A DNA stretch of 64,000 nucleotides from a virus. The position numbers and the translations under genes were made by a program. The notes under the pieces are model-generated. The model was not told where the DNA came from, made no database searches, and worked only from the letters and a program-made list of their open reading frames with translations. Position 1 is the stretch's first letter, and every line of letters starts with the position of its first letter. Below, one piece after another: positions 6,258 through 64,000 of the stretch. The DNA lies in the IMG/VR virus record IMGVR_UViG_3300037628_000362, positions 1 to 64,000 of that record; one strand, written 5' to 3'.

Positions 6258-6272
6258 GTGACAACGTGTCAC
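6258..6272. promoter_or_regulatory. Palindromic site GTGACAACGTGTCAC (copy 1)
   Basis: Exact 15-mer recurring across the window; just after the portal stop codon. Confidence 0.85.
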
Positions 6273-6305
6273 ATTGTACTTTTTCAGCAGAAACGGAGAA
6301 AAATT

Positions 6306-6635
6306 ATGAGAGATTTGAAGATTCGTGCTCATAAAACGCACTGCATTGGAGAAACGATTGAACTGACGGCCGGTTTTATCGATCAAGGCGATGTCAGAAC
6401 GGCTGTACCATTTGAGTTTGAAAAGCGCGGCCTTTACGAGGTAATCCCGGCATTCGCGACAATTGATGCAACAAACGCCCAGGTCCTTATGGATTCGCTC
6501 TGGGACTGCGGGATCCGGCCGACCGACGGAACAGGCAGTGCAGGCTCCCTGGCGGCCACTCAGCGTCACCTGGACGACATGCGCAATCTGGTAGGAAAGT
6601 ACAGTGGCATCAGGTTTGCGGAGGGATTGAAATGA
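6306..6635 (+). CDS. Hypothetical accessory protein
   Basis: ORF with GGAG RBS between portal and head genes. Confidence 0.65.
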   Translation: MRDLKIRAHKTHCIGETIELTAGFIDQGDVRTAVPFEFEKRGLYEVIPAFATIDATNAQVLMDSLWDCGIRPTDGTGSAGSLAATQRHLDDMRNLVGKYSGIRFAEGLK

Positions 6636-7105
6636 GCGACAGATACCATTTCCGCAGAGAGGATAACGACAAGATTGTCGTCGTCGACTGGGAAACCATG
6701 ATGGGAATGGACGGGCTCGGGTGTGTCGAGTTGCCGGACGGGGTGATCGCTAAACGGGTACGAACGAGCGAAAAGAATCTCGGAAAAAGCCCCGGGCCAG
6801 GATTCGTAAATGGTCCACCAATCATCAGTGATTCGATGGGGTTTGGGGAATGCCAGTTCCATGAATTCCAGGAACATCTTGACGCGGCCAAGAAAAATGA
6901 CCCCAGAGTCGGTGGGGTTGAGTTCAAAAAAGACCCTATTGTGCCTGAATACTATCAAGTTCATTGCGATTCCCCGGGGTCCTGGAAAGCATACATGAGG
7001 TCAAGGGGCTTCCATGACCATAACTCACGGAACGGCTCTGGGGCCATGATTTCAGCGGAGCAGTTAGAGGATGCAAAGAGACTGATCCTCGAAAAATTCC
7101 CATAA
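6632..7105 (+). CDS. Hypothetical head-cluster protein
   Basis: 157 aa, ATGA-coupled to upstream ORF. Confidence 0.65.
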   Translation: MSDRYHFRREDNDKIVVVDWETMMGMDGLGCVELPDGVIAKRVRTSEKNLGKSPGPGFVNGPPIISDSMGFGECQFHEFQEHLDAAKKNDPRVGGVEFKKDPIVPEYYQVHCDSPGSWKAYMRSRGFHDHNSRNGSGAMISAEQLEDAKRLILEKFP

Positions 7106-7188
7106 CAGACTATTGACAAGCGTATTGGCTGCAATAATGATAGGAGAATCAAGACAAGCCAATACGTCAATAGCGGAGGGAGTTTTTC

Positions 7189-8259
7189 ATGCCCGACCCA
7201 GACGCGCCTGAAAAAATTGAACTGAACGAGAGAGAGATTGCTATCGCTCAGGGTACTGACCCTGATGAGCCGTCGGAAGAGCCGGATCCGCAACCGGAGG
7301 CGCAGGTCGATGAGACGACCGACCCGCTGTCCGAAGAGCCCCAGGAGGAGACCGGGGACACTTCTGATAAGCCGTCTGATCCAGAACCGGAATCTGAACC
7401 GGTCGCAGAGGAGCAGCCCGAAGAGTGGGTCACGGGCCCGATCCGCGATCTCGCCGTAAGCTACGGCATGAATGAAGACGAGTTGAAAGACTTCGGCAGT
7501 GAAGAGGCATTCCGTAAGACTGCCGTTCTGTTCGATCGACATCTATCCGCTCCCCAGAAACAAGAGGAGCCACAACAGCAGGCTCCCCCGGCGGACCAGC
7601 CGCAAAAAGAAGAGACGCCTGCCCCCGAGAAGTTCGACATGGCGAAACTCCGTGAGTTGGACTATGACGCAGACAGCCTGAAGCTCTTTGAGCGTGCGGA
7701 TGCTGACCGGGAGACGATCGAGCGGCTTGAAGGGGCTGTCAAAGAAATGGGGCAGTTCATTGAGGCGCAGCGTGAATCCCAGAGGCAGGAATCCTCACGA
7801 CGGCTCTGGGATGAATTCCACGGCGCTGTTGACAATCACAACGAGGGTCGTTATGGTAAAAGTGTCGTCGACGGACATCCAACTGCTCTCTTAGTAGCGC
7901 ACGAGGACGCACGACGCAAGCTGTTCGATTCGATGGAGACAATTGTCGTTGGCCTCACTGCGAGGGCAAAGGACGCCGGTAAAGAGCCGGATATCCCGCC
8001 AATAGCGACCCTGATCGATCGGGCAGACATGCTGGCGTTCACTGAGGAGAACCGGACGGCAGAGATGAAGAAGATTCAGGAAGCTGCTTCGAGGCAATCG
8101 AGTAAGAGACGACCCGTAAGCGGAAGTCGGCCCGCAGCGAAGCCGGCACCGAAGCGGGAGCTTGAAGCTGGGGGCGACCCAGCCCAGGAATTGTACGACA
8201 ACCCGGAAATCAGCGCAATGTACGCGAAGCTACAAGAAGAGGAAGGCATGAAACCCTGA
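7189..8259 (+). CDS. Capsid scaffolding protein
   Basis: Acidic Pro/Glu-rich N-terminus, helical body, directly before the capsid gene. Confidence 0.75.
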   Translation: MPDPDAPEKIELNEREIAIAQGTDPDEPSEEPDPQPEAQVDETTDPLSEEPQEETGDTSDKPSDPEPESEPVAEEQPEEWVTGPIRDLAVSYGMNEDELKDFGSEEAFRKTAVLFDRHLSAPQKQEEPQQQAPPADQPQKEETPAPEKFDMAKLRELDYDADSLKLFERADADRETIERLEGAVKEMGQFIEAQRESQRQESSRRLWDEFHGAVDNHNEGRYGKSVVDGHPTALLVAHEDARRKLFDSMETIVVGLTARAKDAGKEPDIPPIATLIDRADMLAFTEENRTAEMKKIQEAASRQSSKRRPVSGSRPAAKPAPKRELEAGGDPAQELYDNPEISAMYAKLQEEEGMKP

Positions 8260-8329
8260 ATCTTACATAGTGTCACATCGAAAAGAACCTAACCGTTGCG
8301 GAGGGCGGTAGCAATAAGGAGGCCAGAAC

Positions 8330-9373
8330 ATGGCATTGCTCCCCCACCAAGTCGACGACTTCGTGAACTTGACCATTGATAACTTCAAGCGTACCAAGTG
8401 GACCGATCTCTCGCTGGAACACCAGGAGTATTGCGTCGCCGCAATTATGACTGATCGCAAGATCATCGAACGCGGCGGCCCGCAGATCAATTTCAAGGTC
8501 CAGACCAAGAATACCGGTACCGCCAGACCCACTGGTCTCTTCTCGGTCGATCAAACGGCCGTCGAGGACCTGACGATCGAGGGCACCGAGACTTGGACCG
8601 CCACCACGGCGAATTGGTCTTACGACATTTACGAAGACCTCTTCCAAACCGATAAAGAGACGATCATCCGTGAACTGGTTGTGCGTGAGCACGCCTGCAT
8701 GAACGATCTGATCGAGTTGGCCGAACAGCAAATCTGGACTGAGCCGACGGGCAGCGAAACTGATGCACCGCCGAAGGGTATCCCCTACTGGATTCAGAAG
8801 GACGCCACCACCACTCCTGGAGGGGCGTTTAATGGCGGCAACCCGTCCGGCTTCGCTGCTGGTTGTGCAAATATCTCCAGTCTTACCGTGCCCCGTTGGA
8901 GAAATTGGACATTCGGGTACACCTCCATCACTTCCGATGATCTGGTGGCCAAAACCAAGAAGGCTATTACCTTTACGCGGTTCAGGGCGCCGAATCCGCA
9001 CCCCGAACTCGCCTTCGGAAAGGGCGACCAGTCTGCTATCTACACCACGTACCGAGTCCTGGAGCCTCTCGAAAGATTAGCCGAAACCCGGAACGACAAT
9101 CTGGGTAAGGATGTGGCCAGGTATATGAATCAGGTTGTGATCGGTGGAGTTCCGATTAAGTGGGTTCCGTACTTGGAAGCGAACGACAGCACGGACCCCC
9201 TGTACGGGGTACAATGGAGTTCACTGCGACCCTATTTCAAGCGCGGAGCAAATATGCGGCGAACGAAGAAGGATGCCCCGCGGCAGCGTAATGTTCGCGA
9301 AGTCCATTACGATAGCTGGTACAACTACATCTGCACCAATCGTCGACTTAATTGGGTCGGGAGCACCTCGTAA
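8330..9373 (+). CDS. Major capsid protein
   Basis: 347 aa after scaffold, strong TAAGGAGG RBS, GG..I motif, G.P...VP and NRR C-terminal pattern of HK97-fold capsids. Confidence 0.85.
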   Translation: MALLPHQVDDFVNLTIDNFKRTKWTDLSLEHQEYCVAAIMTDRKIIERGGPQINFKVQTKNTGTARPTGLFSVDQTAVEDLTIEGTETWTATTANWSYDIYEDLFQTDKETIIRELVVREHACMNDLIELAEQQIWTEPTGSETDAPPKGIPYWIQKDATTTPGGAFNGGNPSGFAAGCANISSLTVPRWRNWTFGYTSITSDDLVAKTKKAITFTRFRAPNPHPELAFGKGDQSAIYTTYRVLEPLERLAETRNDNLGKDVARYMNQVVIGGVPIKWVPYLEANDSTDPLYGVQWSSLRPYFKRGANMRRTKKDAPRQRNVREVHYDSWYNYICTNRRLNWVGSTS

Positions 9374-9425
9374 GGGTCCATTGGCCTTCACATACACATT
9401 CAAATCTCCATAAGGAGCTTAACAA

Positions 9426-18124: not shown

Positions 18125-18139
18125 GTGACACGTTGTCAC
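18125..18139. promoter_or_regulatory. Palindromic site (copy 2, reverse orientation)
   Basis: GTGACACGTTGTCAC in intergenic space. Confidence 0.85.
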
Positions 18140-18483: not shown

Positions 18484-19766
18484 TGGTAAACACATTCTCA
18501 ACAACCTACGCCTCCGCGGCAATCGTGCCCTCCCCAGGGACCGTGACGGATAAGCATGGCGGCCCGAGTGCCATTGCCATCGTCGATGAGCGGGAGATAC
18601 GTCAACTATCCGCGAACAAGCCCCAGACCGGAACACCGCGGTACTGTGCCCTTCGACCGCTCTTTAGTGATGGCGCGGGCCCACAGAAGTGGGTGGTCGT
18701 ATTCTACCCGACACCTAATAAGGACATGGCCGTCGAGTTCCGATACGGAGTTACTCCGCAGCCGCTGTCTGCGGATAATCCGTACCCGATTGGCGGCCGA
18801 CAGCACGCCGAGACTCTCTTACAGTCGTGCCTAGCAGTCGCCGAACTACGTGAACAAAAGGAGGCCGGAGCCCAGTCGGCCCGGTTCATGGCAAGCCTGG
18901 CTTCCTCGATCAAGCTCGACTTGGCTACAGCGGCCCCGACCGCCCCCGGGACATGGCCGTTCGAGGATATGCCGGACAGTCTGACAGTCACCAGGGCGTA
19001 CCTGAAGCGCCGTGCTGGGCTCCATATGGGCATCGGGGCGAATCAGGGCACCTGGAACCACCACCAGGCCCAGCAGGTCGAACTGGCTGTCCAGACCGGC
19101 TTGCGTCGTTTTTATACGCCTATTCCATTGCCGGGCGAAAAATCCGCATGGGAGTGGTCATTCTTGTTTCCTGAGGGTAATCTAACGACCGTGACGGCCA
19201 AGGGCGATTACGATCTCCCGGAAGACTTCGCCATGATAGACGGACCAATGACGTATGAGCCCGAATCAAACGTCCTGTACCCAGAGGTCATTCATGTCGG
19301 AGAACACCAATTGCGGTATCGCCGACAGCGTACCCAGGTGAGTAATCGGTCGGAATTGTTCGCGATACGGGTGAAAAACCCTGATGCCGGTACTGGCACC
19401 CGGTATGAGCTGCTTCTCTGGCCGACGCCTGACCAGGAGTACAATATAAAATATCGTTACAAGATTAACCCTGGTTCGCTGTCTGATGATACAGCGCAGC
19501 CGCTCGGCGGGCAACCCCATATGGAATGTGTCATCGCCTCGGTCCTTGCCGCCACAGATGAGATACTAGAGCGCAAGAGCCAATGGGACGCGCGGTATTT
19601 GCAGTCACTGGCCGCGTCCGTAAGCCACGACAGGAGAGTTAATGCTGCTGGAAGTTACGGCAGGAACGTAGACCGGTCCGACAGGCCATTGCAATTTAGT
19701 ATGCCCGATTGGCATGAATGGGACGACAATTTGACCCCGATTAACGGCGTCAGCGGTTACGCCTAG
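18480..19766 (+). CDS. C-terminal half of adaptor domain 2 fused to complete adaptor domain 3
   Basis: FYPTP...PIGG.QHAET, then WSFL, YDLPEDF, WPTPD and PLGG.PH. Confidence 0.7.
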   Translation: MMVNTFSTTYASAAIVPSPGTVTDKHGGPSAIAIVDEREIRQLSANKPQTGTPRYCALRPLFSDGAGPQKWVVVFYPTPNKDMAVEFRYGVTPQPLSADNPYPIGGRQHAETLLQSCLAVAELREQKEAGAQSARFMASLASSIKLDLATAAPTAPGTWPFEDMPDSLTVTRAYLKRRAGLHMGIGANQGTWNHHQAQQVELAVQTGLRRFYTPIPLPGEKSAWEWSFLFPEGNLTTVTAKGDYDLPEDFAMIDGPMTYEPESNVLYPEVIHVGEHQLRYRRQRTQVSNRSELFAIRVKNPDAGTGTRYELLLWPTPDQEYNIKYRYKINPGSLSDDTAQPLGGQPHMECVIASVLAATDEILERKSQWDARYLQSLAASVSHDRRVNAAGSYGRNVDRSDRPLQFSMPDWHEWDDNLTPINGVSGYA

Positions 19767-19770
19767 TCGC

Positions 19771-19799
19771 TTGCAACTCCTGGCGATCCCGTTTAGAAT
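19771..19799 (+). promoter_or_regulatory. Sigma70-type promoter candidate
   Basis: TTGCAA-N17-TAGAAT in intergenic space. Confidence 0.55.
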
Positions 19800-19824
19800 A
19801 ACAGAATACCGAAAGGAAGAAAAC

Positions 19825-20193
19825 ATGGCCAATGAAATCACCGTCAGCGTGTCGCTCAATGGCGAGAAAGGCACGAAAAAGGACCGCCGCGCCTTTGGGG
19901 GTTTGCAGTTCGATATGGCTGGAAATAATTTCATCCATCACACACAGTCAATCGGCACATCCGAAGAGGCACTCGTTATGAGCGGAGATGTTACCGTTCC
20001 TGGGTGGGCCGTTTTCTTCAACCACGATGACACGAATTTCGTGGAGATCCGGCCAGCCACTGGGGTTGCCGACCTCGTTACCGTTCCGCCACAAGGCCCG
20101 GCGTTATTTAAGTTTGCATCGGACGCGACTGCGCCTTTCGCAATCGCTGACACTGCGACTTGTGACCTCGAATATTTGATCTTCGAAGCGTAA
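19825..20193 (+). CDS. Small virion structural protein
   Basis: 122 aa beta-rich, RBS present. Confidence 0.65.
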   Translation: MANEITVSVSLNGEKGTKKDRRAFGGLQFDMAGNNFIHHTQSIGTSEEALVMSGDVTVPGWAVFFNHDDTNFVEIRPATGVADLVTVPPQGPALFKFASDATAPFAIADTATCDLEYLIFEA

Positions 20194-20240
20194 CCACTAC
20201 CTGCGCCACACCTGAGCGCATTACCAAAAAGGAAAACCCT

Positions 20241-20939: not shown

Positions 20940-21071
20940 TAACGTCAATTAGCCTGAGCGCTGAACCGGGGCCTTGCGGCGAGTGCGCAACTGCCCGGCA
21001 ATCAGAACAGGCGGCAGAGGATAATGGATCCGGGCACTCGCCGGGTCCATTCCTTTGTTCAGGAGGCCCGT

Positions 21072-26641: not shown

Positions 26642-26653
26642 GAGAACATTCTG

Positions 26654-27721: not shown

Positions 27722-27789
27722 AGTTTTTGATACTTATGGCACTTATATACTTGACTCATCATATCCGGCAGGCACGAAGGGAACCTTAA

Positions 27790-28047: not shown

Positions 28048-28079
28048 TGAATAATGAGTCAAGTATCTAAGGTTTTGAT

Positions 28080-28661: not shown

Positions 28662-28678
28662 ACACGAGGGAGTCAATA

Positions 28679-29854: not shown

Positions 29855-29855
29855 T

Positions 29856-32800
29856 ATGGGCCTTGCTGATGACTTTGACGCCTGGAAATCAAAGCCAGCC
29901 GCGACCGACAAGGGCAGTGAAGTACCTATCGATACACTTGTCGAGAAGTTCGAGCGATGGAAAGCCCCGCGGGCCATAAGCGAGCCTCTGCCTGCACCAC
30001 TATCGCCCACTCAACCCGGGCAGCGACCTTTGCCGGAGCCCGGGTTTGCGCCGAAGACCGCGGAGACAGTGCCCGCCGCATCGGCTCAGATTCCGAGGTC
30101 CATGCAACCAGAGCAGCGCACATTAAGCCCGGAGGAACAGCGGCAGTGGATTTCCGATAAAGATAAGCGAGACCGGAAGCTTGCCGAGGAGTACGTGGCA
30201 AGTGTCGTAGAATCAGGCGGAATTTTGCCCGAGGACGATATCTATACTGAACCTGACCCCGGCCCTATTAGTCCGCAGGAACAGGCACAGGCAGTGCATA
30301 GAAACTTGCGAGAAGGATTGCCTGGGTATAAGAACGCTCTTGTCAGAACTATTGGGCAGGGCCTCGCTGGCGCAGGTAGTCAGTTCGCATCGCTGGCCAG
30401 TCGACTAGAAGGCGAAGATGTAAAGGCTGACGAAATAAATCGCCTTAATCAGATGTCCGAGCAAGCTGCCGCAATGGAAGATAAAAACTCTATAATCAAC
30501 AGGAGACTTCTTTCTGGCGGTCGGAGTGCCGTAAATTCCCTGGCGACGATGATTATCGGTAGGGCAGCCGGCCTTCCTGGCATGATCGGGCTATTTACTG
30601 CTGAGTCAGTAAATCAAGCCATCACTGATGGTCGGGATGCTGGGCTCTCAGGAAGTAAGTTGGTCGCACATGCGGCAACGCAAGGGGCCATTGAGGGAGT
30701 CGTTACGTGGATATTCTCAAAAATTGGTCTCGGTGGCGTTGAATCAAAGCTGGCTTCCCGAGCGATCCTTAGTGCGGGCCTGAAGGAGGCAGCCAAAAAA
30801 ACAGGTAAAACTGTCGGCGGCGAATGGACAGAGGAACAGATTATATTATTCGGACAGAGCCTAACGTCCTCCCTCGCTGGCGTACAAGACCCTATGACTC
30901 TTGTGCATGAGGATGGAAGCTTTCGCGATAAAGACGGAAATTTCACGCCGTACATCGAGTCTGTAATTGACACGTCTGTCGCGGTCTTCATTATGTCCGG
31001 CACTGTCAGTGCCCCAGATATCGCATCCGCTGGAATGCGACAGATTGGTGGCCGGAAGCGTAAACCACTTGGCGAACCAGAAGGAGAAACTGATGTTTCA
31101 GAACCAACTAAAGTCGATGAGCCCGTGGGAGAGGACCCTACTAGTCAGCCAATTACTCCACAAACTCAACTGCCGGATGACGGAACGACAGTGGAACGTC
31201 CTCCCAGTGAACCTGGAGCAGTCGATGAGCCAGCAGTTATTCCTGACGAAGCCGAGCCTGCCCCGGAAGAAGAAGTACCGGCCGGGGACGGGGAAGCGGT
31301 ACTAGAACAAGCCCGGTCACAGCCTGGGGTTTGGACGCGGGTGCCTGCGGGCGCGGCGCCACCCAGCTTGCCGGGCATTGAAATAAAGAAGACGATCGAC
31401 GGTACGTACATTCGTTTCACAGAAGGAGAACCTGATGCCCAAGAAACTCCACCAGAAGTTGTCCCGCCAAGCAGCGAAGAAGGGCTTGAAGGGCAGCAGC
31501 CAGAAGGCGTACGTGTACGGGACGCTGCGGAAGCAGAAGAAGAAGGCCCGGGGAGGGTAATCGGTCCCCAGTTGCCAGCACAACCGGAACCAGAGGTGCC
31601 AGCGGCCGAGGTGCCCCCAGAAGCTCCTGTGAGGTCCGTAGACGAGCCCGAGGTAATCCGGGCAAGGTTTATCGATGATCTGGAACGTGAGGGCGTGGCT
31701 GTCGCACCAGACGGATCAACGGTTAAGATAGTGCCTGATCCGGGCAAAAAGGGCCGTTTTATAGTTGAAACAGCAACGGCCAGCGGAAGTTCCATAACGA
31801 AAGGCCCATGGAGGGGGTATACGCGCGACCAAGCCATCGAAATCGCCGCCACTGGGATTGATTTCGCTAAATCTCAAGGCGCTGGGCCAGAAGAAGCAGG
31901 GCCGCCTGGTCAGCCATCTCCGCTCGCCGCCGGCGCCATTTCTCAAGAGTTACAGGACATACTTGACGCCGGCAAGCCGGAGAAAATCGTTGTCGAACCA
32001 ACTGAGCCAACCACAGAATTGGCATTTCAGCCTGAAACCCCTGAGAAACCACTAAGTGACACGTTGTCACAACCGGCAGAGACGCCCCTTGAGCCTGAAA
32101 GGAGGACAGAATGGATTGCTGATCGCGGCATGGAACACATAGCGACCGCGGCTGACGGCTCTGAGGTGTACATAAAAGCCGATCCGACGAATGAAGGCCG
32201 GTTTGTAGTGGAAGTCGTCAAAGACGGCATGCGCGAAATAAAGAGAGACCCGAAAGAGGGATATGCCTTTAAGGGATACACTCGCGAAGAGGCCGTGAAG
32301 AGGGCCCACGAAGAGGCTGGTGTTTCAGAAACACCGAAGAAGAAGTCAGTCGGAAAAAAGAAGCCAGTCAAGAAGAAGAAGTTGTCACCGGCTGCTAAAC
32401 GGGACGTACGGATCAAGGAATTGCGACGGAAGAAAGAAGACGCCAAAAGGGCCATAGAGAAGACTAAGGAGACTAAGGAAGCGGCAGAGAAGCCCGTCAA
32501 GAAAAAGAAGTCGGACAGTGACGCCGGAAAATCCACGCGGATAGGTGCCACTAGAAAAAAGCGGCTGGGCAGTAAGATCACTCGGTCCTCGCTAGCCAAG
32601 ACATTTCCTGGAGCAAAGATAAAGCCAGCCCCTAATGGTTGGCACGTGGAGATCGGCGATTCATTTTTCACAGTCGAGCTGACAGACGAGGTGGCTCCAG
32701 TTGATTGGAAGGCAATAGAGGCTTCTGGCGTAAAGGTGTCGGCAAAGCTGCGAGGCCAGATAGCTGTTGCCGGATCATTTTCGCTGAAATTACCGGACGG

Positions 32801-37806: not shown

Positions 37807-37821
37807 GTGACAACGTGTCAC
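37807..37821. promoter_or_regulatory. Palindromic site (copy 4)
   Basis: GTGACAACGTGTCAC; flank ATTGYACTTTT shared with copy 1. Confidence 0.85.
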
Positions 37822-41583: not shown

Positions 41584-41953
41584 ACAATTCACCGGCGCAT
41601 CTTCCGTAATGAAGGGCGATACGCCCTGGCTTGCGTCAGAGGATATTATTGATGCCGGTGACGTGATCGTGGAAATCGAGGGGATTTACCTGCATCGTGA
41701 CGCAGTGTTTGATGATGGGCGCAAGGAAGATGTGTACGCCCTGGGTTTCGTGGGTAAAAAGAAACATCTAATCCTGAATGCCACAAACCGCCAGCGGATA
41801 GTAAAATTGACCGGCACAGGTAAAACAGCATCCTGGATCGGTCAAGTGATCGCCCTGTACGTTGAATACGGAATCCGGAAGCCAGGCGGCGTGAAGGGCG
41901 AGACGACGTGCGGGATCAGGATTAGGGAAAAGGTGCCTGTTCAAGAAAAGTGA
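41573..41953 (+). CDS. Putative ssDNA-binding/recombination partner
   Basis: LILNATN...WIG..I.L...GIRI motif, position after exonuclease. Confidence 0.55.
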   Translation: METEQFTGASSVMKGDTPWLASEDIIDAGDVIVEIEGIYLHRDAVFDDGRKEDVYALGFVGKKKHLILNATNRQRIVKLTGTGKTASWIGQVIALYVEYGIRKPGGVKGETTCGIRIREKVPVQEK

Positions 41954-41964
41954 CAACGTGTCAC
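41950..41964. promoter_or_regulatory. Palindromic site (copy 5)
   Basis: GTGACAACGTGTCAC overlapping the upstream stop codon. Confidence 0.85.
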
Positions 41965-41991: not shown

Positions 41992-43317
41992 ATGAAAGTT
42001 CTGCGCTACACCGTCCACAATTTGATGCGGATTTCCGATCTCGACCTGGACCTCGAAGGCCGCCACCTGTTCGTGATCGGCGGAAAGAACGGCGAGGGCA
42101 AGACCTCCGCCACTTCCGCTCTCCTAATGGCCCTGTGCGGCCGATCCGGGATGGACTGGCCTGAAGTGGCACTGCGTGAAGGGCAAGATGAAGGATGGGT
42201 GAAGGTCGAACTGGCCGGCGATGCCGTACTCGAAAATTACACGGTTGAGTTGAACCTCAAACGTCGTCGCGGCGGGACTGTCATTGAGGGCCTGAAGATG
42301 ACGGACTCGGACGGCAAAACGCTCACCGGACCTCGTGATATACTGAAACAACTGTACCACAATAGGGCGTTCGATCCACGGGAGTTCGAGACCGCACCCA
42401 AGAAGGCCCGCCGGGAGTGGCTGATGTCCCTAGCCGGTCTGGACTTCAGCGAGGATAAGGCTAAGCGAAAGCGGATCTTCGATGAGCGAACCGTCGTCAA
42501 CCGAGACGTGCATAAGGCCAAGGCCAAGCTGGAGGACATGGCGTTTCACAGTGACGCGCCGGAAAAAGAGGTCTCGTCGTGGGACAGGATGCAGGAAGTC
42601 GATCGGAGGCAGAAGCATAACGCGAAGCTCGACAGCCTGAATGAAAAGTTCGCTGGGTGCCAGCGTAGTATCGAAGAGTCAATGGCAGCCGCCCGTAGAC
42701 TCGCCGATGAGATCGAAAAAACCGAGGCCCTTCTTCGTGTCAGGCAGAGTCATTTCAGGTCGAACGCCAGTGAGCAATCGGCACTCCAGGACTCCATTGA
42801 TTCGATCAAGTACGACATAGACCATTTTGTGCAGCTCGATGTTGAGGAGATACGGGACAAGATCAAGACGGACGGTGAGAACAACCAGAAAGTCCGCGAG
42901 AACGTCGTTCGTGCGGCCCAAAAAGAAGAGCTGACCGACCTATCGACAAAAGTGTTCGATCTCACTGATGCTATCCATGCCATCGACGACAAGATTCAGA
43001 ACGCCCTGAACGATGCCCAGTTCCCGGTCGCCGGGCTGTCAGTCGACGACGACGGGGTTCTCTGGAATGGTCTACCGTTCGAGCAGGCGTCCCAGAGCGA
43101 GCGGATTGTCGTTTCAGCCAAGATCGGACTGGCGGCCAACCCAGAGCTTCCGCTGCTTGTGACTCAGCATGGCTCGGATCTCGACAGGGATACGCTCAAG
43201 AGCCTGGAGTCGTTCCTGGCGGAAGAAGACGCCCAGATGATCTTAGAGGTCGTGACACGCACAGAGGAGGATGAAGAACTATGCTCGCTGGTCATCGAGG
43301 ACGGTAAAGCCAAGTAG
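41992..43317 (+). CDS. SMC/SbcC-like coiled-coil ABC ATPase
   Basis: GKNGEGKT Walker A, central coiled coil, ASQSE signature, degenerate Walker B/D-loop (GSDLD). Confidence 0.85.
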   Translation: MKVLRYTVHNLMRISDLDLDLEGRHLFVIGGKNGEGKTSATSALLMALCGRSGMDWPEVALREGQDEGWVKVELAGDAVLENYTVELNLKRRRGGTVIEGLKMTDSDGKTLTGPRDILKQLYHNRAFDPREFETAPKKARREWLMSLAGLDFSEDKAKRKRIFDERTVVNRDVHKAKAKLEDMAFHSDAPEKEVSSWDRMQEVDRRQKHNAKLDSLNEKFAGCQRSIEESMAAARRLADEIEKTEALLRVRQSHFRSNASEQSALQDSIDSIKYDIDHFVQLDVEEIRDKIKTDGENNQKVRENVVRAAQKEELTDLSTKVFDLTDAIHAIDDKIQNALNDAQFPVAGLSVDDDGVLWNGLPFEQASQSERIVVSAKIGLAANPELPLLVTQHGSDLDRDTLKSLESFLAEEDAQMILEVVTRTEEDEELCSLVIEDGKAK

Positions 43318-44718: not shown

Positions 44719-45486
44719 ATGAAGCTGAATATCGACCCCGATCTTGAGAACTACCTGACTCAGCCTAAGTCGCCAACAGACGACATGCTGACCGCTCTCA
44801 TTAAGCGTGACGGTGGAGTAGGCCACGAGCACGCTATCACCGTCTGGGAGGGCAAGGGAGTCATTGTCGACGGGCATCGTCGCTATCGGATCTGCCAGGA
44901 ACTCGACCTCCCGTTCGCTGTCGTCGAGCAGAAGTTCAAGGACATCGATCAGGTTAAGTCTGAAATGCGACAGATCCAACTCAGTCGCCGCAACTCGACT
45001 GGCCGCGTACGAGATTCCCTGATGACAGAGGAGCTTGAGTACCAGCGGTCCATGGGAGCCGGAAAAGGGGATTCACTCCAGGCCGTAGCGGATAGTGTCG
45101 GGACGACGACTCGCACCGTTCGCCGAGCCAGTAAGCGCACCGAGGCCGAGAAGAAGCTCCCGCAGGAAGTGTCAGACCGGATCAAGTCCGGCGACCTGAA
45201 GGCGTCCCAAAGGGATGTTATCGCCCTGGCTGCGAAAGACCATACTGAGATCAAGGAAGCAGTTGCTACAGTGGATTCCGGCGACTGTAAGACAATCCAC
45301 GAGGCGCTTCGGCAGATGGACGACACGCCGGAGTTTAATATCAGGCAAGTCAAGTCAGATGCACGGGCGGCGGCTGTCACGCTACTAAAAGCTCTCGACG
45401 CTCTCCAGGAGCTTCAGAGTAGCCCTCGGCACCAGAGCGTAATCCGAAAGGCAAAGAGTATTCTGGAGTGTTTGGATAAGTGGTAA
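44719..45486 (+). CDS. ParB/Srx-like N-terminal domain protein with HTH
   Basis: IVDGHRRY, QLSRRN, VADSVGTTTRTVRR helix-turn-helix. Confidence 0.8.
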   Translation: MKLNIDPDLENYLTQPKSPTDDMLTALIKRDGGVGHEHAITVWEGKGVIVDGHRRYRICQELDLPFAVVEQKFKDIDQVKSEMRQIQLSRRNSTGRVRDSLMTEELEYQRSMGAGKGDSLQAVADSVGTTTRTVRRASKRTEAEKKLPQEVSDRIKSGDLKASQRDVIALAAKDHTEIKEAVATVDSGDCKTIHEALRQMDDTPEFNIRQVKSDARAAAVTLLKALDALQELQSSPRHQSVIRKAKSILECLDKW

Positions 45487-49825: not shown

Positions 49826-49960
49826 GGGGAAGTGAAATGAGTGAGAACCATGTCGTCACCGTGACATTCGGGACGTGGCGCCTTCAATCGTATGCAACCA
49901 CCGACAACCTGCCAGATGCCGAGCGGCTACGTATACGCGCACGAAAACAAGGGTACACTG

Positions 49961-50377
49961 ATGCAAAGATCGAGACTCAGAAGGACTTCCGCAAAAAGAC
50001 GAGACAGGGAGACGGAAGCGTGGGAGTGGCGCAGCAGGCTAGTGGCTCGTATCGGGAAATGCGAGGCGTGCGGACACAACCTAGTACATCCGTGGCGGGA
50101 CAAGCCGCGGCATCTAAGCCTCCTGTGCGTCCACGAGATCGCGTGCGGGCCGTTGCGTCAGAAAGCGATCGACAAGCCATACGCAACGCTAGTGACTTGT
50201 CATTGGTGCAATTGCGAGAGGATGACCGATCGAACTGAGTGGCCCGAGGCTCGGCAATTGGCCACGCTGAAGCGGTCCAGACCAGATGACTACGACTTGG
50301 TGGCGTACAACCGCCTAGTAAACCCAAACGCCCCTGAGCGGATAACCCAAGCGGAGGTAGATGAGCATGAAAATTGA
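49961..50377 (+). CDS. HNH-like zinc protein
   Basis: CEACG...HEI...CHWC. Confidence 0.55.
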   Translation: MQRSRLRRTSAKRRDRETEAWEWRSRLVARIGKCEACGHNLVHPWRDKPRHLSLLCVHEIACGPLRQKAIDKPYATLVTCHWCNCERMTDRTEWPEARQLATLKRSRPDDYDLVAYNRLVNPNAPERITQAEVDEHEN

Positions 50378-50627
50378 AACCGGCGTAATGGTAATGAAAG
50401 ACGGGAAGGCGTGGGGGATCGTCTACGAAGATGGCCAAAGTGCCTGCTCTGGATGGATTGATGTTGAATCAGCTCCGATTCACGATCCGAAATACTGCAA
50501 GAAGACAACCGACGTTACCTTTGAGCACAGTCACCACACGACGGAGTTGGAAACGGCAAAACTTGTTGAAGTAAAAAGGATAACGACCGTGGAAATTCTC
50601 GAACAGAACGATGAGGGAAGTAGCTAA
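50361..50627 (+). CDS. Hypothetical protein
   Basis: GGAGG RBS, 88 aa. Confidence 0.6.
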   Translation: MSMKIETGVMVMKDGKAWGIVYEDGQSACSGWIDVESAPIHDPKYCKKTTDVTFEHSHHTTELETAKLVEVKRITTVEILEQNDEGSS

Positions 50628-51229
50628 TGCCTAGCTTCACCCAATACATGACGCTCAATGAGATCCACACGGTCCTAGAAGACCTCCGCCTGCGGTCTAT
50701 CTGGAGCGTATCGTCGGCCGTCAACCGGATCATCGTGCGGCTCTCGCTCGGCGCTGGGCTCCGCTGCATGGAAATCGTTGGCCTCAATGTAGGTGATCTC
50801 GTTCTCGGTGGAAGTTGCCCGGTCATCAACGTACGTGGCGAGACAGCGAAGGGCGGCAAGCCGAGAAAGGTGCCCTTGTTCTGGGACCGGCAGACACTTG
50901 CCGACCTGGCTAACTGGCAACGGCACCGCACTGAGGTCATGGGTGCCACGCGTGGAGATCCATTCGTTTGCGGAGTCTGCCAGACAAATCGAGGTGGCCG
51001 GCTGATACGGTCGATGGCGGCAAAGCGATGGAAGACAGCGATTAAGTGTCTGGGGACCGATCGGGTGTCTCAACTGTCGATCCACTGCGGCCGGCACAGC
51101 TTTGCCTCGCACGCCGTTCGAGCTGGTCGTACACCGGCAGAGTTACGCGACGCCCTGGGCCACGCGAATATCACCACCACTGAAACCTACCTGCACTCGA
51201 TCCCGACTGAGTGTGGGGATTTATTCTGA
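50627..51229 (+). CDS. Minimal tyrosine recombinase (catalytic domain only)
   Basis: GLR..E, K, HCGRH, LGHANITTT..Y catalytic residues; 200 aa. Confidence 0.9.
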   Translation: MPSFTQYMTLNEIHTVLEDLRLRSIWSVSSAVNRIIVRLSLGAGLRCMEIVGLNVGDLVLGGSCPVINVRGETAKGGKPRKVPLFWDRQTLADLANWQRHRTEVMGATRGDPFVCGVCQTNRGGRLIRSMAAKRWKTAIKCLGTDRVSQLSIHCGRHSFASHAVRAGRTPAELRDALGHANITTTETYLHSIPTECGDLF

Positions 51230-51241: not shown

Positions 51242-51709
51242 ATGAGCGAGAATGACCGGAGTTATTTTGCCACACCACTGGCCGACGTTCCGCCGGCAAT
51301 AAATAGCACGTCCTGGTACCCTCCTGTTCACATGGAATCCGGCGACACACAACAGCAGTTCTCGACCGGCGCCGTACGCGACCAGGTAGAAGACAAGCCT
51401 CGGCCTGATCTGATCTCGCCATTCGCAGAAGAGCGGCTAGGTGAGTGGTTGCGCCTCGGCGCAATTAAGTATTCCGAGCGTAATTGGGAAAAGGGGATTC
51501 CGAACGCTAGGTGCTTCGCGTCATTGAAGCGCCATGTAATGTGGTTCAATCAGGGGGACACGAAAGAAGATCACCTGGCAGCCATTATTTTCAACGCAAT
51601 GGCGATCATTCATAATCAAGAGATGATCGATCGTGGAGTCCTGCCGGCGGAACTAGACGACATGCCGAGGTATGTCACGGTCACAGAAGGTTGCGAGACG
51701 CTCAGGTGA
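51242..51709 (+). CDS. dATP/dGTP diphosphohydrolase-like (DUF5664)
   Basis: FSTGAVRD, KPRPDLI, GAIKYSERNWEKG, EDHLAA. Confidence 0.85.
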   Translation: MSENDRSYFATPLADVPPAINSTSWYPPVHMESGDTQQQFSTGAVRDQVEDKPRPDLISPFAEERLGEWLRLGAIKYSERNWEKGIPNARCFASLKRHVMWFNQGDTKEDHLAAIIFNAMAIIHNQEMIDRGVLPAELDDMPRYVTVTEGCETLR

Positions 51710-52749: not shown

Positions 52750-52989
52750 CTATGCGGCCTTACGTGGCCGACGTGATTTGAGACGATCGAGGGGAGCAAA
52801 AGCGCCCTCTATGATCTTGGCCTTGAGTGGCTTACATCCGTACTGAGCCATGTACACCAGCACGGATGCTAGGCTTTTTGGATTGACATGGCCGCGGTGT
52901 CGATGCTGCTGGACCGTGTTGACTGTTTGCCCTGTCAAGCGGGCAATTTCACGGTAGTTGTAACCGAATTCGCTGGCATCCCGCGACAT
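52750..52989 (-). CDS. Small HTH-like DNA-binding protein
   Basis: YREIARLTGQTVNTVQQH. Confidence 0.6.
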   Translation of the reverse strand: MSRDASEFGYNYREIARLTGQTVNTVQQHRHRGHVNPKSLASVLVYMAQYGCKPLKAKIIEGAFAPLDRLKSRRPRKAA

Positions 52990-54355: not shown

Positions 54356-55207
54356 GGTTTCCTCCTACGCATCGAGCATGATATGAACGAACCCGTCATG
54401 CTCGGCACAGGGGTTTCGTTCTGGTTTGCCTGCTAGTGCCTCCGAACCTTCCCGTCGGATCTGCCACCCGTTTTCGGTTCCACAGGGGTTTCGGAGTTCG
54501 GAAAATGTAACGACATCTTCGTCGCTCCAGTGTACAGGAACGCAGACTTGACAGTCCAAGGCTCCACTGTGTGTTACGGCTGGGAGGTTCATGTTACTTC
54601 TTATCGGCGATCGGGCCGAGTGACAACATGTCATATTGGCTTATTCGGCGGTTCTGTGCCTGATTTGAGTTTTTCTGCGACCACCTCTTTCAACCTGGCG
54701 ATCTTTGCTCGGACATTCTTAATATCTGCGTTGGAAAGTTCACCGTATGTAGGCTCGACGCCGAGATCCCGCGCAATCGTAGGTCCTGCACAAATGTTCG
54801 TTACACAGGCTCTTATTGTTTTCGCGATCAACCAAATTGCGCCCAGTATGACGATATTTCTAATGCAGTCTGTCGCGAAATCCTTAGCCAGATACCAGAT
54901 GGCGAAGGTGAAAGCCCCGTCCCCTAGCTTATCGAGACTTTCCAGAATCAGCTTCAGTTCGTCAAACATCGTTTTCTCCTTGTTTTGATCGAAATTTACA
55001 CGTGTCAATTTCTGCCAATCCGCCGGATTTCAGTGATATCACTCAGCGTCCCCAGGAGCCCGTATTTGGCGTTTCGTGCTCTCAGGGGTCAAATGACACC
55101 GATAATAGGCCCAGATTGCCAGGAACCGGCCGGCTTGCGACCTGCGAGTTGTGTTAGCGAGGTTTACGGCGTCGGAGCGGCATCGTGTCGTCCGCTAGGT
55201 TAGCGCG

Positions 55208-57570: not shown

Positions 57571-57738
57571 ATCAATCCTCCAAGAGAGTAGGAATCGAGG
57601 CCGGCGACATGCTAGCCCCTCGATGATAGTATCGGTATCTGCCATGGTGTCACATTACAAAGAGTGCGCATAAAGAACCCCCGGCCAAGCGGTGGAGCAG
57701 GCCGAGGGTTGAAAGGAAGTGACAGTATTTGTTATCGG

Positions 57739-59441: not shown

Positions 59442-59456
59442 TTGACAACGTGTCAC
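59442..59456. promoter_or_regulatory. Palindromic site, 1 mismatch
   Basis: TTGACAACGTGTCAC. Confidence 0.75.
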
Positions 59457-59519: not shown

Positions 59520-59548
59520 TTGCCAGGTCGGGCGCCGTGTGCTATACT
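59520..59548 (+). promoter_or_regulatory. Sigma70-type promoter
   Basis: TTGCCA-N17-TATACT with TG extension. Confidence 0.65.
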
Positions 59549-63057: not shown

Positions 63058-63072
63058 GTGACAACGTGTCAC
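63058..63072. promoter_or_regulatory. Palindromic site (copy 6)
   Basis: GTGACAACGTGTCAC directly upstream of a - strand RBS. Confidence 0.85.
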
Positions 63073-63290
63073 ACGGGCTTTTCCAGCGGTGCTGGCCGGA
63101 TCTGCCAAAGCGGCACGGTCAGGATCTTGGTCTCCGTCCCTGGTCCGTATTTACCAAACGCCTTCACATCGGCGTACTCTCCTGATGTGCTGAGCACGAC
63201 GCCAGTGAGCGGATACCCTCTGGCATTCTGGAGGTTGCTGAAAATAACGAGATCGTCTTTTTTAATCATCATGCTCTCCTTTTGTGACAC
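63069..63290 (-). CDS. Small hypothetical (SH3/KOW-like) protein between two palindromes
   Basis: IKKDDLV..., true start probably ~63272 after AAGGAG. Confidence 0.55.
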   Translation of the reverse strand: MSQKESMMIKKDDLVIFSNLQNARGYPLTGVVLSTSGEYADVKAFGKYGPGTETKILTVPLWQIRPAPLEKPV

Positions 63291-63298
63291 GTTGTCAC
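63284..63298. promoter_or_regulatory. Palindromic site (copy 7)
   Basis: GTGACACGTTGTCAC directly upstream of a - strand RBS. Confidence 0.85.
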
Positions 63299-63323
63299 AT
63301 GCCCATAACTTCCGTGATTTCGA

Positions 63324-63536
63324 TCAGTTTGGCCGCTCAACGCCCCGAAGCAGCCCCGCTGCCCATTGAAGCTTACTGCCGACTTCCTTGATTTTGGCTG
63401 CACTTATCGGAAATACGTGGATCTCCGTGCTGCCGATTTGGAGGATAAGTTTTCTGCCGCCCTCGGGACCGTCGTGCGGGTGGATCGTGGCGCAGATATA
63501 CTCCGGCTTCTCGTCCAGTAGAATTACAGTGGCCAT
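63324..63536 (-). CDS. Small hypothetical protein
   Basis: TAAGGAG RBS. Confidence 0.6.
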   Translation of the reverse strand: MATVILLDEKPEYICATIHPHDGPEGGRKLILQIGSTEIHVFPISAAKIKEVGSKLQWAAGLLRGVERPN

Positions 63537-63637
63537 TTTTGGTTCTCCTTATCAACTAGATTTGCAGGTTTTCCTCGTGTCATCCCGAACACTATGCCCG
63601 CTATTTGCGTCAAGTCAAATCGCGCACTAGTGGAAGA

Positions 63638-63856
63638 TCAGATATTTTCATGGACATCCTCTCGGTGAAACTCAATATCAGTCACCTCAATTTCCTCGGC
63701 GACAAACTCTCCTTTACCAGCTTTCACGAGGCGATGTGCGTCATCGGCGCTCTCGGCTGTGATTATGTACTCCTGGATTCCGTGAGCTTCCTTAACTGTT
63801 CCCGGTACGATATATTCTTTCATCTTTCGTCTCATGGTTCTGGTTAAAAGTGACAA
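63638..63856 (-). CDS. Small hypothetical protein
   Basis: I.AESADDA motif; degenerate palindrome upstream (63850-63864). Confidence 0.5.
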   Translation of the reverse strand: MSLLTRTMRRKMKEYIVPGTVKEAHGIQEYIITAESADDAHRLVKAGKGEFVAEEIEVTDIEFHREDVHENI

Positions 63857-64000
63857 TGTGTCATCTTGACCTGCTTTCCGGCCGCCAGTTCCAGACCGGA
63901 GGCTTGCCTGAGATTTCAGGCAGAAATATGCCGTCCGCCTTATCTGGCCGAACCCACTTGGCCATGAAGTCTAGTTTACCATTTCGTTCGACCCGGTAGA

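What the first reader, a model, noticed from the sequence alone, without database searches (positions are those of the whole stretch)
6258..63864. Genome-wide 15-bp palindrome GTGACA-ACG-TGTCAC at 10 sites: an unannotated operator or parS/matS-like system
Seen: exact copies in either orientation at 6258, 18125, 32056, 37807, 41950, 63058 and 63284, plus near copies at 54620, 59442 and 63850. Nine lie at gene boundaries, usually between a stop codon and the next RBS and often with AAAA...ATT flanks. One lies inside a disordered linker of the 2013-aa ORF. They occur in late, replication and early modules alike. Known: dispersed palindromes are bound by ParB (parS) and MatP (matS GTGACRNYGTCAC, same arms with a shorter spacer), and dispersed repressor sites act as mycobacteriophage stoperators. 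Inference: the ParB-HTH protein (44719-45486), which has no ParA partner in the window, or the small HTH (52750-52989) binds them to silence or organise the whole genome.
Basis: partly seen in the sequence, partly recalled or inferred. Interest (0 to 1): 0.8.

Follow-up and report, generated by a model that had tools for sequence, protein, structure and literature searches.

The report
Phage palindromes matching an orphan ParB
An uncultured marine-sediment phage carries the same 15-letter DNA palindrome at about a dozen gene boundaries, and comparison with other phages suggests it is the docking site of the phage's own partner-less ParB-type DNA-binding protein, an arrangement known from plasmids and bacterial chromosomes.

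Summary
Observation confirmed. None of 100 shuffles gave a single exact copy. An eighth exact copy lies at 74648 of the 76,696-bp record, outside the window.

The core TGAC(A)-N3-(T)GTCA recurs in a patchy subset of relatives: 11 sites in a 28-kb contig and 57 on three contigs of a Planctomycetota MAG. Arms are constant, the spacer is genome-specific, and it occurs in both orientations.

It is not a host-genome motif. In the 6.8-Mb MAG, 26 of 32 strict sites lie on the phage contigs; the reversed control gives 7.

The motif follows one gene. All 5 motif-bearing genomes with a visible non-structural region encode a close homologue of the ParB-like protein 44719-45486, including 3 with unrelated virion genes. 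Six motif-free genomes lack it or carry a divergent 532-aa form.

The protein folds like Spo0J/Noc/KorB. No ParA was found. The small HTH is absent from a complete motif-bearing genome.

Binding and function are untested. An RNA-hairpin role is not excluded. This scan noted similar orphan-ParB palindrome sets on other DNA.

The parts
6258..6272 (.). Exact palindrome copy (spacer ACG on the + strand), between the portal gene stop and the next gene
8262..8276 (.). Degenerate copy CTTACATAGTGTCAC (2 arm mismatches) just upstream of the major capsid gene. Relative G001 has a perfect site at the orthologous position.
18125..18139 (.). Exact copy (spacer CGT on the + strand), 17 nt upstream of an ATG
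32056..32070 (.). Exact copy inside the 2013-aa internal-virion-protein ORF, in a Pro/Glu-rich stretch
37807..37821 (.). Exact copy, intergenic, 33 nt upstream of the ATG at 37855
41950..41964 (.). Exact copy. It contains the TGA stop of the upstream gene and lies 27 nt upstream of the SMC/Rad50-like ATPase gene.
41992..43317 (+). SMC/Rad50/RecF-like ABC ATPase (Pfam AAA_23, phrog_1499). It lies directly next to the ParB-like gene in G008, G009 and G010. It is a possible partner but not the reader of the motif.
44719..45486 (+). Orphan ParB-like protein, 255 aa, with a GHRRYR box and an HTH. It is the best candidate reader of the palindrome.
52750..52989 (-). 79-aa protein with a sigma-70 region-4-type HTH.
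54620..54634 (.). Near copy GTGACAACATGTCAT (1 arm mismatch) at the junction of two minus-strand genes
57639..57653 (.). Degenerate copy (2 arm mismatches), intergenic. Its minus-strand half-site GTGACA doubles as a -35-like hexamer.
59442..59456 (.). Near copy TTGACAACGTGTCAC (1 arm mismatch), 64 nt upstream of a promoter-like TTGCCA-17-TATACT
63058..63072 (.). Exact copy. It holds the TGA stop of the upstream minus-strand gene and lies 4 nt before the next RBS.
63284..63298 (.). Exact copy, 4 nt before the RBS of the minus-strand gene 63069-63272
63850..63864 (.). Near copy GTGACAATGTGTCAT (1 arm mismatch). It holds the stop of the RNA ligase gene.

Best explanation
The 15-bp palindrome (half-site GTGACA, 3-bp spacer) is a double-stranded-DNA docking site read by a symmetric dimer. 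The most likely reader is the phage's own orphan ParB-family protein (44719-45486), which has a ParB N-terminal domain with a GHRRYR box, an HTH and a helical C-terminus.

About a dozen sites are spread over the 76.7-kb genome. Almost all are squeezed into the short gaps between a stop codon and the next ribosome-binding site.

By analogy with KorB-OB on plasmid RK2 and Noc-NBS on the Bacillus chromosome, the protein would nucleate at these sites. It might then spread or slide, either to modulate transcription of neighbouring genes or to organise the replicating phage DNA. The SMC/Rad50-like ATPase that sits next to the ParB gene in relatives may take part.

Shown here:
- the sites and their enrichment;
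- their conservation with a free spacer;
- their absence from the host-type genome;
- their co-occurrence with the ParB-like gene;
- the ParB fold;
- the absence of ParA.

Inferred: binding by ParB, any nucleotide dependence, and the downstream effect.
For: 1. Sequence-specific, orientation-free conservation.
- Arms are identical in 8 of 8 exact copies.
- The asymmetric spacer appears as ACG in 5 copies and as CGT in 3 on the plus strand, irrespective of gene direction or flanks.
- Relatives keep the arms but use other spacers, again in both orientations: G001 CAG/CTG, L095 CGG, L078 ACC.

2. Enrichment in relatives.
- TGACA-N3-TGTCA counts: 11 in G001 (28 kb), 5 in G002, 5 in G003.
- TGAC-N5-GTCA counts: 29, 20 and 8 on contigs C122, C493 and C210 of MAG G006.
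- Reversed controls give 0-2; chance expects at most 1.2.

3. Not a host motif. In the 6.8-Mb MAG, 26 of 32 GTGAC-N5-GTCAC sites are on the three phage contigs and 6 are elsewhere. The control gives 7.

4. Co-occurrence with the ParB-like gene.
- Homologues (29-35% identity) are present in 5 of 5 motif-bearing genomes whose non-structural region is held: G000, the G006 phage, G008, G009 and G010.
- G008, G009 and G010 share no portal, terminase or capsid gene with the window. They share only the ATPase/ParB-like/helicase module, and carry 5, 2 and 5 sites.
- Two further metagenome contigs of the G008 type also hold site plus ParB plus ATPase.

5. Negatives.
- G004 (complete) and G005, same virion family, have 0 strict TGACA-N3-TGTCA sites (G005 has 1 looser TGAC-N5-GTCA match, at chance level) and no ParB-like gene.
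- Three isolate phages have the ATPase homologue but no ParB-like hit, and have 0 sites.
- G011 has a divergent 532-aa ParB-like protein and 0 sites.

6. Fold. The AlphaFold model has pLDDT 79. Its best PDB matches are Spo0J, Noc, Caulobacter ParB and KorB over 195-235 columns; 28 matches have E <= 0.001. NCBIfam parB_part gives E 1e-4.

7. Proximity. A site lies within 120 nt of, or inside, the ParB-like gene in G008, G009 and G010 (P about 0.05-0.09 each), and 36 nt from it in C493.

8. Sites also occur inside genes. By a crude ORF model 16 of 29 sites in C122 are deep in coding sequence. That fits a DNA site better than a UTR element.
Against: - No binding data exist. All support is correlational and rests on about four independent lineages.
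- In the window itself the nearest site is 2.8 kb from the ParB-like gene (P 0.64).
- Pfam ParB_N does not hit the protein.
- The arginine box is GHNRYK in C493, so CTP use is uncertain.
- Recognition-helix sequences of the type xxRT(V/I)xR also occur in many ParB-like loci without the motif within 10 kb on either side.
- 80 more distant ParB-like viral loci show no dispersed palindrome.
- Among imperfect sites, the sense strand shows G-T more often than A-C: 36 against 20, binomial P 0.044. This weak bias is what an RNA hairpin would predict.
- Motif-bearing lineages are scattered on the portal tree. Module exchange would explain this but is not shown.
- G001 and G002 carry the motif, but the parts held show no ParB-like gene. 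Both records are incomplete (57% and 42%).
Confidence: 0.55

Rival explanations
1. The palindromes are operators or docking sites for a different phage DNA-binding protein. Candidates are the 79-aa sigma-region-4-type HTH (52750-52989), the HNH-like protein 49892-50377, or an unrecognised small protein travelling in the same module.
For: - The HTH has a homologue in the most motif-rich relative: C493, 42% identity, E 2e-11.
- The HNH-like protein is 46-55% identical in the G006 phage, G008 and G010.
- Co-occurrence cannot separate genes that are linked in one module.
Against: - The HTH has no homologue in G008 (complete, 5 sites), G009 or G010, even at E up to 20.
- The HNH-like protein is also present in the motif-free G004 and G005, at 31-32% identity.
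- Neither protein is known as a palindrome reader of this format.
Confidence: 0.15
2. The element acts as RNA. A 6-bp stem with a 3-nt loop sits in polycistronic transcripts just upstream of ribosome-binding sites. It would serve as a processing, stability or translational-operator signal read by a phage or host RNA-binding protein.
For: - In the window 9 of 10 sites lie between a stop codon and the next RBS, some only 4 nt before the RBS.
- The hairpins fold at -6.6 to -8.9 kcal/mol.
- Imperfect sites favour G-U over A-C on the sense strand, 36 against 20, P 0.044.
- Where relatives have the palindrome upstream of the portal gene, this phage has a tRNA-like element there instead.
Against: - Stem sequence, not just pairing, is invariant within a genome and nearly so between genomes whose portal proteins are only 42-52% identical.
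- The loop is conserved within a genome yet used in both orientations regardless of transcription direction, which gives two different RNA loops.
- About half of the sites in the G006 phage lie inside coding sequence by a crude ORF model.
- Fold z-scores are weak, -1.5 to -2.9.
- The motif tracks a DNA-binding ParB-like gene.
Confidence: 0.12
3. The sites are binding sites for a conserved host protein, either a transcription factor or a nucleoid protein, that the phages exploit.
For: - The core half-site is identical in phages with very different gene sets.
- Its distribution on the portal tree is patchy.
- The half-site resembles a -35 hexamer; 59442 reads TTGACA, and 57639 pairs with TACTAT at a 16-nt spacing.
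Against: - In the Planctomycetota MAG that carries the motif-rich phage contigs, only 6 strict sites lie outside those contigs in about 6.7 Mb. The reversed control gives 7.
- A second Planctomycetaceae MAG gives 5 against a control of 7.
- No -10-like element lies at a fixed distance from the sites.
Confidence: 0.05
4. The sites are intrinsic terminators or promoters.
For: The simple scanner lists 6258 (+) and 18125 (-) among its weak terminator-like hairpins.
Against: - No U-tract follows most copies.
- Flanks differ between the plus and minus gene blocks.
- Terminator-like and promoter-like counts do not exceed shuffles.
- A palindrome gives no direction.
- There is no room for a -10 box and a start site between the palindrome and an RBS 4-17 nt away.
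Confidence: 0.03

Closest known systems
KorB and its OB operators on IncP-1 plasmid RK2
   Same: - KorB is a ParB-family protein with an HTH.
- It reads a short palindrome present about a dozen times across a roughly 60-kb replicon, many copies away from promoters.
- The sites act in global gene control. The abstracts describe a CTP-dependent sliding clamp that silences genes at long range.
- KorB structures are among the fold matches here: 8qa9, 8qa8 and 1r71.

What I saw: for PMC11790492 and PMC13768133, the search listing and the start of each abstract only. The number and sequence of the OB sites are recalled.
   Different: - KorB has a ParA partner (IncC) and a co-repressor (KorA); this is recalled. 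No ParA is found here.
- The site sequence is unrelated.
- The replicon here is a phage of lytic-type gene layout.
- Binding and CTP use are untested.
Noc and its NBS sites on the Bacillus subtilis chromosome
   Same: - Noc is an orphan ParB paralogue without ParA. It reads many dispersed palindromes rather than an origin-proximal cluster. PMC12704722 names Noc as an orphan ParB (passages). The NBS details are recalled.
- Noc structures rank among the best fold matches: 7ng0, 7nfu and 7ol9.
   Different: - Noc tethers DNA to the membrane through an N-terminal amphipathic helix (recalled). That feature was not examined here.
- Noc is a host chromosomal protein, not a phage protein.
Cluster O mycobacteriophage 17-bp repeats (Corndog and relatives; PMC4351075)
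   Same: - Both are phage genomes of about 70 kb with an inverted-repeat site separated by 3 bp: 7-N3-7 there, 6-N3-6 here.
- There the arms are invariant and there are more than 30 copies.
- The central trinucleotide occurs in both orientations, unrelated to the direction of transcription.
- Many copies are intergenic or at the 5' ends of genes.
- The phage encodes a ParB-like domain protein and an AAA ATPase but no parAB system.
- The authors predict a dimeric DNA-binding protein and leave the function unknown (passages read).
   Different: - The sequence differs (TGTTCGG-NNN-CCGAACA).
- About a third of those sites lie within genes.
- The authors did not link the repeats to the ParB-like protein.
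- No homology between the two sets of proteins was tested here.
Cluster A mycobacteriophage stoperators
   Same: Both are many dispersed short sites in intergenic gaps of a phage genome. The comparison is made in PMC4351075.
   Different: Stoperators are asymmetric, oriented with transcription, and bound by the immunity repressor of a temperate phage (PMC4351075 passages). Here the sites are palindromic, free in orientation, and no repressor is identified.
matS / MatP of enterobacteria
   Same: I also recall that consensus; it comes from no call.
   Different: - The spacer between the pentamers is 5 bp here against 3 bp in matS.
- No MatP (PF06303) is found in the phage or in the Planctomycetota MAG.

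Membership tests
ParB/Spo0J/KorB/Noc protein family (for 44719-45486) | ParB N-terminal (CTPase-type) fold | tested here: met
   The Foldseek top hits are Spo0J 1vz0 (E 1e-5), Noc 7ng0 and 7nfu, ParB 6t1f and 7bm8, and KorB 8qa9. NCBIfam parB_part gives E 1e-4 but is below its cut-off. Pfam PF02195 gives no hit. Membership therefore holds at fold level only.
ParB/Spo0J/KorB/Noc protein family (for 44719-45486) | Arginine-rich box II (GERRxR type) | tested here: met
   GHRRYR in the window protein. The homologues have GHRRYK, GHRRYH and GHRRYG, but C493 and G011 have GHNRY. The canonical consensus is recalled.
ParB/Spo0J/KorB/Noc protein family (for 44719-45486) | Central helix-turn-helix DNA-binding domain | tested here: met
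   Fold alignments of 195-235 columns span the N-domain plus the DNA-binding domain of Spo0J, Noc and KorB. The DNA-binding-domain-only entries 6s6h, 1r71 and 3mkz also match weakly. The sequence is LQAVADSVGTTTRTVRR.
ParB/Spo0J/KorB/Noc protein family (for 44719-45486) | CTP binding, clamp closure and sliding | not testable with these tools
   This needs biochemistry.
ParABS partition system | ParA (Walker-type ATPase) partner, and a ParA-binding motif in ParB | tested here: not met
   PF13614 and PF01656 give no match in the 76.7-kb record or in the complete G008; positive controls matched in 14 of 14 genomes. The motif [LFI]G[KR]G[LFI], taken from PMC12704722, is absent from all 7 ParB-like sequences. 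The window's record is only 77% complete.
parS / OB / NBS type sites | Short palindrome bound by the cognate ParB-family dimer | tested here: inconclusive
   The palindrome and its enrichment are shown. Co-occurrence with the ParB-like gene holds in 5 of 5 motif-bearing genomes, against 0 of 5 motif-free genomes plus 1 divergent case. Binding is untested.
matS / MatP | 13-bp GTGACRNYGTCAC site together with a MatP protein | tested here: not met
   The spacer is N5, not N3. MatP is absent.
Cluster A stoperators | Asymmetric site oriented with transcription | tested here: not met
   The site is palindromic, and spacer orientation is unrelated to gene strand.
Intrinsic terminator | GC-rich hairpin followed by a U-tract | tested here: not met
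   The stem is 6 bp at -6.6 to -8.9 kcal/mol. No consistent U-tract follows. Scanner counts do not exceed shuffles.
Sigma-70-type promoter | -35 and -10 hexamers at a 16-18 nt spacing | tested here: not met
   No -10-like hexamer lies at a fixed distance from the sites. Only the degenerate 57639 copy pairs with TACTAT. The host's promoter type is unknown.

The most novel reading that the evidence does not exclude
A phage-borne chromosome-organising pair: the orphan ParB loads at 11 to 57 dispersed palindromes and recruits or cooperates with the SMC/Rad50-like ATPase. That ATPase gene is directly adjacent to the ParB gene in G008, G009 and G010. The pair would compact, align or insulate replicating phage genomes. 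It would be a viral counterpart of ParB-parS-SMC loading, it would move between unrelated phage lineages as one module together with its sites, and it is seen here in phages linked to Planctomycetota.
Probability: 0.15. Interest if true: 0.85.

Novelty: new variant of a known kind. Interest (0 to 1): 0.6.

Why it matters
Orphan ParB-fold proteins are common in phages, and a recent survey leaves their roles largely open (PMC12704722, passages). Dispersed palindromes such as the Cluster O repeats have stood unexplained since 2015 (PMC4351075).

This case supplies a specific protein-site pairing that can be tested directly. Its comparative signal is stronger than one genome can give. The same half-site follows the ParB-like gene into phages with unrelated virions. 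It is missing from close relatives that lack the gene, and it is absent from the putative host genome.

If binding is confirmed, KorB/Noc-type genome-wide ParB networks would be extended to phages of lytic-type layout. It would also give a handle on gene control or DNA organisation in phages of Planctomycetota.

Tried and rejected
- Near-identical DNA in GenBank phages: none.
- Terminase and virion-protein tblastn: only distant phages, below 40% identity.
- Exact 15-mer across IMG/VR: 67 stretches, none with more than 3 copies. That is roughly what I would expect by chance, on my own estimate of the collection's size. The window's own record is withheld.
- Single-protein locus search with the terminase: nothing.
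- Promoter reading: rejected. No -10 element at a fixed distance, and counts are not above shuffles.
- Terminator reading: rejected.
- Host-motif reading: rejected for the one putative host genome available.
- matS/MatP: rejected.
- Small proteins next to the site cluster at 63 kb and other neighbours: no informative Pfam hits in 10 proteins.
- Ten ORFs from the left arm of G001: no DNA-binding domain found.
- Small-HTH alignment A3 against IMG/VR: no relatives.
- Recognition helix against motif across 80 ParB-like loci: not informative, because similar helices occur without the motif.
- Broad ParB-like family: no general link to dispersed palindromes. No locus had 3 or more TGAC-N5-GTCA sites in 80 viral loci. 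The 80 metagenome loci gave 5 matches where about 7.6 are expected by chance.
- Portal tree: built on 51 sequences. 7 of the 57 loci were dropped because they had no portal ORF of 400 aa or more. It shows no single motif-bearing clade.
- Literature by sequence words: nothing relevant.
- Searches for orphan ParB plus dispersed sites in phages: no description found. Subscription journals and supplements were not searchable.
- Sequencing runs: one DNA run only, a marine sediment metagenome that may be the source. No RNA holder is listed.
- My ORF models are crude (longest ORF, greedy choice). The coding and intergenic counts are therefore approximate.
- Correction to my notes: note 2 gives the MAG split as 27 and 5. 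A recount gives 26 on the phage contigs and 6 elsewhere.

Full report
**The observation.** The window is bases 1-64000 of a 76,696-bp IMG/VR virus record, classed as linear with a CheckV completeness estimate of 77%. The one sequencing run that holds it is a marine sediment metagenome. GTGACAACGTGTCAC occurs exactly at the 7 stated places, and none of 100 dinucleotide-preserving shuffles gave a single match. The three near copies each differ by one arm base. An eighth exact copy lies at 74648, outside the window, and the reversed control pattern gives 0. With the arms alone and up to 2 mismatches the window gives 13 matches against a shuffle mean of 2.19.

**Where the sites lie.** The flanks and ORFs put 9 of the 10 window sites at gene boundaries.
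- Four of them (41950, 54620, 63058, 63850) use the TGA inside the palindrome as the stop codon of the upstream gene.
- 63058 and 63284 sit 4 nt before an RBS.
- The tenth site is in a Pro/Glu-rich stretch of the 2013-aa ORF. That ORF matches an internal virion protein family.
- The 74648 copy lies in the divergent gap between a DNA methylase gene and the plus-strand genes.

**Symmetry.** The 3-bp spacer is asymmetric. It reads ACG in 5 copies and CGT in 3 on the plus strand, and this has no relation to gene direction. For example, 18125 has the same AAAA...ATT flanks as 6258 but the opposite spacer. The flanks themselves differ between the plus-gene and minus-gene blocks. A reader that does not care which way the site faces fits a symmetric dimer on duplex DNA. 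It fits less well with a loop-specific RNA reader.

**Gene content.** Plus-strand genes run from about 74.9 kb, through the record's end, to about 52 kb. They are:
- an SbcD/Mre11-type exonuclease, an HNH endonuclease, the terminase, the portal and virion genes;
- a recombination and replication block: a PDDEXK exonuclease, an SMC/Rad50/RecF-like ATPase at 41992-43317, a Cpn10 homologue, the ParB-like gene, an SF2 helicase, a primase-like protein, an SSB-like protein, an HNH-like protein, a 200-aa tyrosine recombinase and a MazZ-like domain protein.

Minus-strand genes run from 52.7 to 74.6 kb. They are mostly small unknown genes, plus an RNA ligase, a 5'-3' exonuclease and a DNA methylase. 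No RNA polymerase or ParA was detected among the proteins scanned.

**Relatives.** No close GenBank phage exists. The portal protein has more than 400 homologues. An alignment of 21 of them retrieved 57 IMG/VR loci and two MAG contigs binned as Planctomycetota.
- TGACA-N3-TGTCA occurs 27 times in 8 of the 57 loci, which total 598,266 bp. Chance expects about 0.6. Six loci hold 2 or more copies.
- On whole records, G001 has 11, G002 has 5 and G003 has 5. The complete G004 (67.5 kb) and G005 have 0. Controls are 0.
- The Planctomycetota MAG G006 carries a related phage on contigs C122, C493 and the end of C210, with 29, 20 and 8 TGAC-N5-GTCA cores.
- The arms stay constant across all of these. 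The spacer is genome-specific and again occurs in both orientations (CAG/CTG in G001). The outermost pair changes on both sides together, G...C to C...G, in L095 and L097.
- Some positions are orthologous, for example just upstream of the major capsid gene: perfect in G001, decayed to 2 mismatches at 8262 here.
- On a portal tree of 51 sequences the motif-bearing lineages are scattered.

**Host motif or phage motif.** In the 6.8-Mb MAG G006 there are 32 strict GTGAC-N5-GTCAC sites. Of these, 26 are on the three phage contigs and 6 are elsewhere; the reversed control gives 7. A second Planctomycetaceae MAG gives 5 against a control of 7. The motif therefore belongs to the phage and is not a general host signal. 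The host assignment rests only on binning.

**Which gene travels with the motif.** I compared all ORFs of the window's record with the motif-bearing and motif-free genomes.
- Only two proteins are found in every motif-bearing genome whose non-structural region is held and in no motif-free member of the same virion family. They are the ATPase 41992-43317 (36-42% identity) and the ParB-like protein 44719-45486 (29-35%).
- The alignment-based locus search with the ParB-like protein led to G008 (59.6 kb, direct terminal repeats, 100% complete), G009 and G010.
- These three share no portal, terminase or capsid gene with the window. They share only the ATPase/ParB-like/helicase/SSB-like/HNH-like module.
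- They nevertheless carry 5, 2 and 5 sites, with controls of 0, 0 and 2. In G008 all 5 sites read ACTGAC-N5-GTCAGT.
- In G008, G009 and G010 the ATPase and ParB-like genes abut. A site lies within about 120 nt of the ParB-like gene or inside it.
- Two metagenome contigs of the G008 type repeat this arrangement.

**Controls.**
- Three isolate phages have the ATPase homologue (28-31% identity). They are not among the 17 records matched by the ParB-like protein, and they have 0 sites.
- G011 encodes a 532-aa ParB-like protein with a different HTH helix and has 0 sites.
- G004 and G005 lack both genes.
- The 79-aa HTH has a homologue only in C493.

The ATPase alone therefore does not predict the motif. 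The small HTH is not required for it. The ParB-like subfamily is the best predictor.

**The protein.** Its sequence shows IVDGHRRYRI followed by an HTH, GTTTRTVRR. PHROG "ParB-like partition protein" matches at E 1e-7. NCBIfam parB_part matches at E 1e-4, below its cut-off. Pfam gives no hit. An AlphaFold model from a 6-sequence alignment has mean pLDDT 79.4. Its best matches are Spo0J, Noc, Caulobacter and Myxococcus ParB, and KorB, over 195-235 columns. The ParA-binding motif is absent. ParA families are not found in this record or in the complete G008.

**Evidence on the other side.**
- Nothing shows binding.
- The association rests on about four lineages, and the genes are linked in one module.
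- The wider ParB-like family shows no general link to dispersed palindromes.
- Recognition helices do not map simply to the motif.
- Imperfect sites show a weak sense-strand excess of G-T over A-C, 36 against 20, P 0.044. An RNA hairpin would predict this. The tight placement before ribosome-binding sites in this genome would also suit an RNA element.
- Against the RNA reading: stem sequence is invariant, the loop is used in both orientations, folding energies are modest, and about half of the sites in the G006 phage lie inside coding sequence by a crude model.

**Comparison with what is known.**
- The closest mechanistic models are KorB-OB on RK2 (PMC11790492 and PMC13768133, listing and abstract starts only; site details recalled) and Noc-NBS (recalled; named as an orphan ParB in PMC12704722).
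- The closest phage parallel is the Cluster O 17-bp 7-N3-7 repeat. It has more than 30 copies and a spacer orientation unrelated to transcription. Those phages encode a ParB-like protein and an AAA ATPase but no ParA, and the function is unknown (PMC4351075, passages).
- ParB-like activators of phage thymine dioxygenases lack a DNA-binding domain and so differ from this protein (PMC13229309, abstract).
- I found no paper that links an orphan phage ParB to dispersed cognate sites. Supplements and subscription journals were not searched.
- Earlier notes of this scan describe similar orphan-ParB palindrome sets in other phage genomes. I treated them as leads only.

**Verdict.** The motif is a real, selected feature. 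It is most likely a set of docking sites for the phage's orphan ParB-type protein (confidence 0.55). Its function is open between gene control and DNA organisation.

Noticed in passing
window 41950-41964, 54620-54634, 63058-63072, 63850-63864: The TGA inside the palindrome arm (GTGACA) serves as the stop codon of the upstream gene at four sites. The site is therefore packed into a gap of almost zero length.
   Followed up: partly
window 51242-51709: This protein carries the dATP/dGTP diphosphohydrolase N-terminal domain (PF18909, E 4e-18), the MazZ-type domain I recall from aminoadenine (Z-base) phage pathways. No PurZ was looked for.
   Followed up: no
window 50627-51229: A 200-aa tyrosine recombinase consisting of the catalytic domain only (XerC/XerD-like). 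It is conserved at 38-42% identity in both motif-bearing and motif-free relatives.
   Followed up: partly
window 43389-43757: A Cpn10/GroES homologue (PF00166, E 6e-14) sits between the ATPase gene and the tRNA-like array.
   Followed up: no
L134 (G001) 1-216, minus strand: By eye, the ORF at the contig end reads like a CsrA/RsmA carbon-storage regulator (MLVLSRK...RIGLDAPKD). It lies next to a palindrome site at 202. It was not run against any library.
   Followed up: no
L138 (G004) 400-2710: The motif-free complete relative has its own repeated element: 6-7 copies of AAACGGTTAACA about 23 nt before a conserved CTTTAGGAGAT (RBS). They lie upstream of small early genes.
   Followed up: no
L148-L150 (G006 contig C122): A second over-represented palindrome, TGGAA-N4-TTCCA, occurs 7 times. 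The maximum in shuffles is 3.
   Followed up: no
L049 848-1058 (IMGVR_UViG_2878801562_000005): An unrelated 9.4-kb viral contig holds three exact copies of the 15-mer at 98-bp spacing, that is, inside a tandem repeat.
   Followed up: no
window 59520-59548: A promoter-like TTGCCA-17-TATACT with an upstream TG lies on the plus strand, facing against the minus-strand early genes. It is 64 nt downstream of the 59442 site.
   Followed up: partly
L142-L145 (G005) about 19618-35415: The motif-free relative G005 has a single ORF of about 5265 aa. It was seen only as a subject name in a BLAST table.
   Followed up: no
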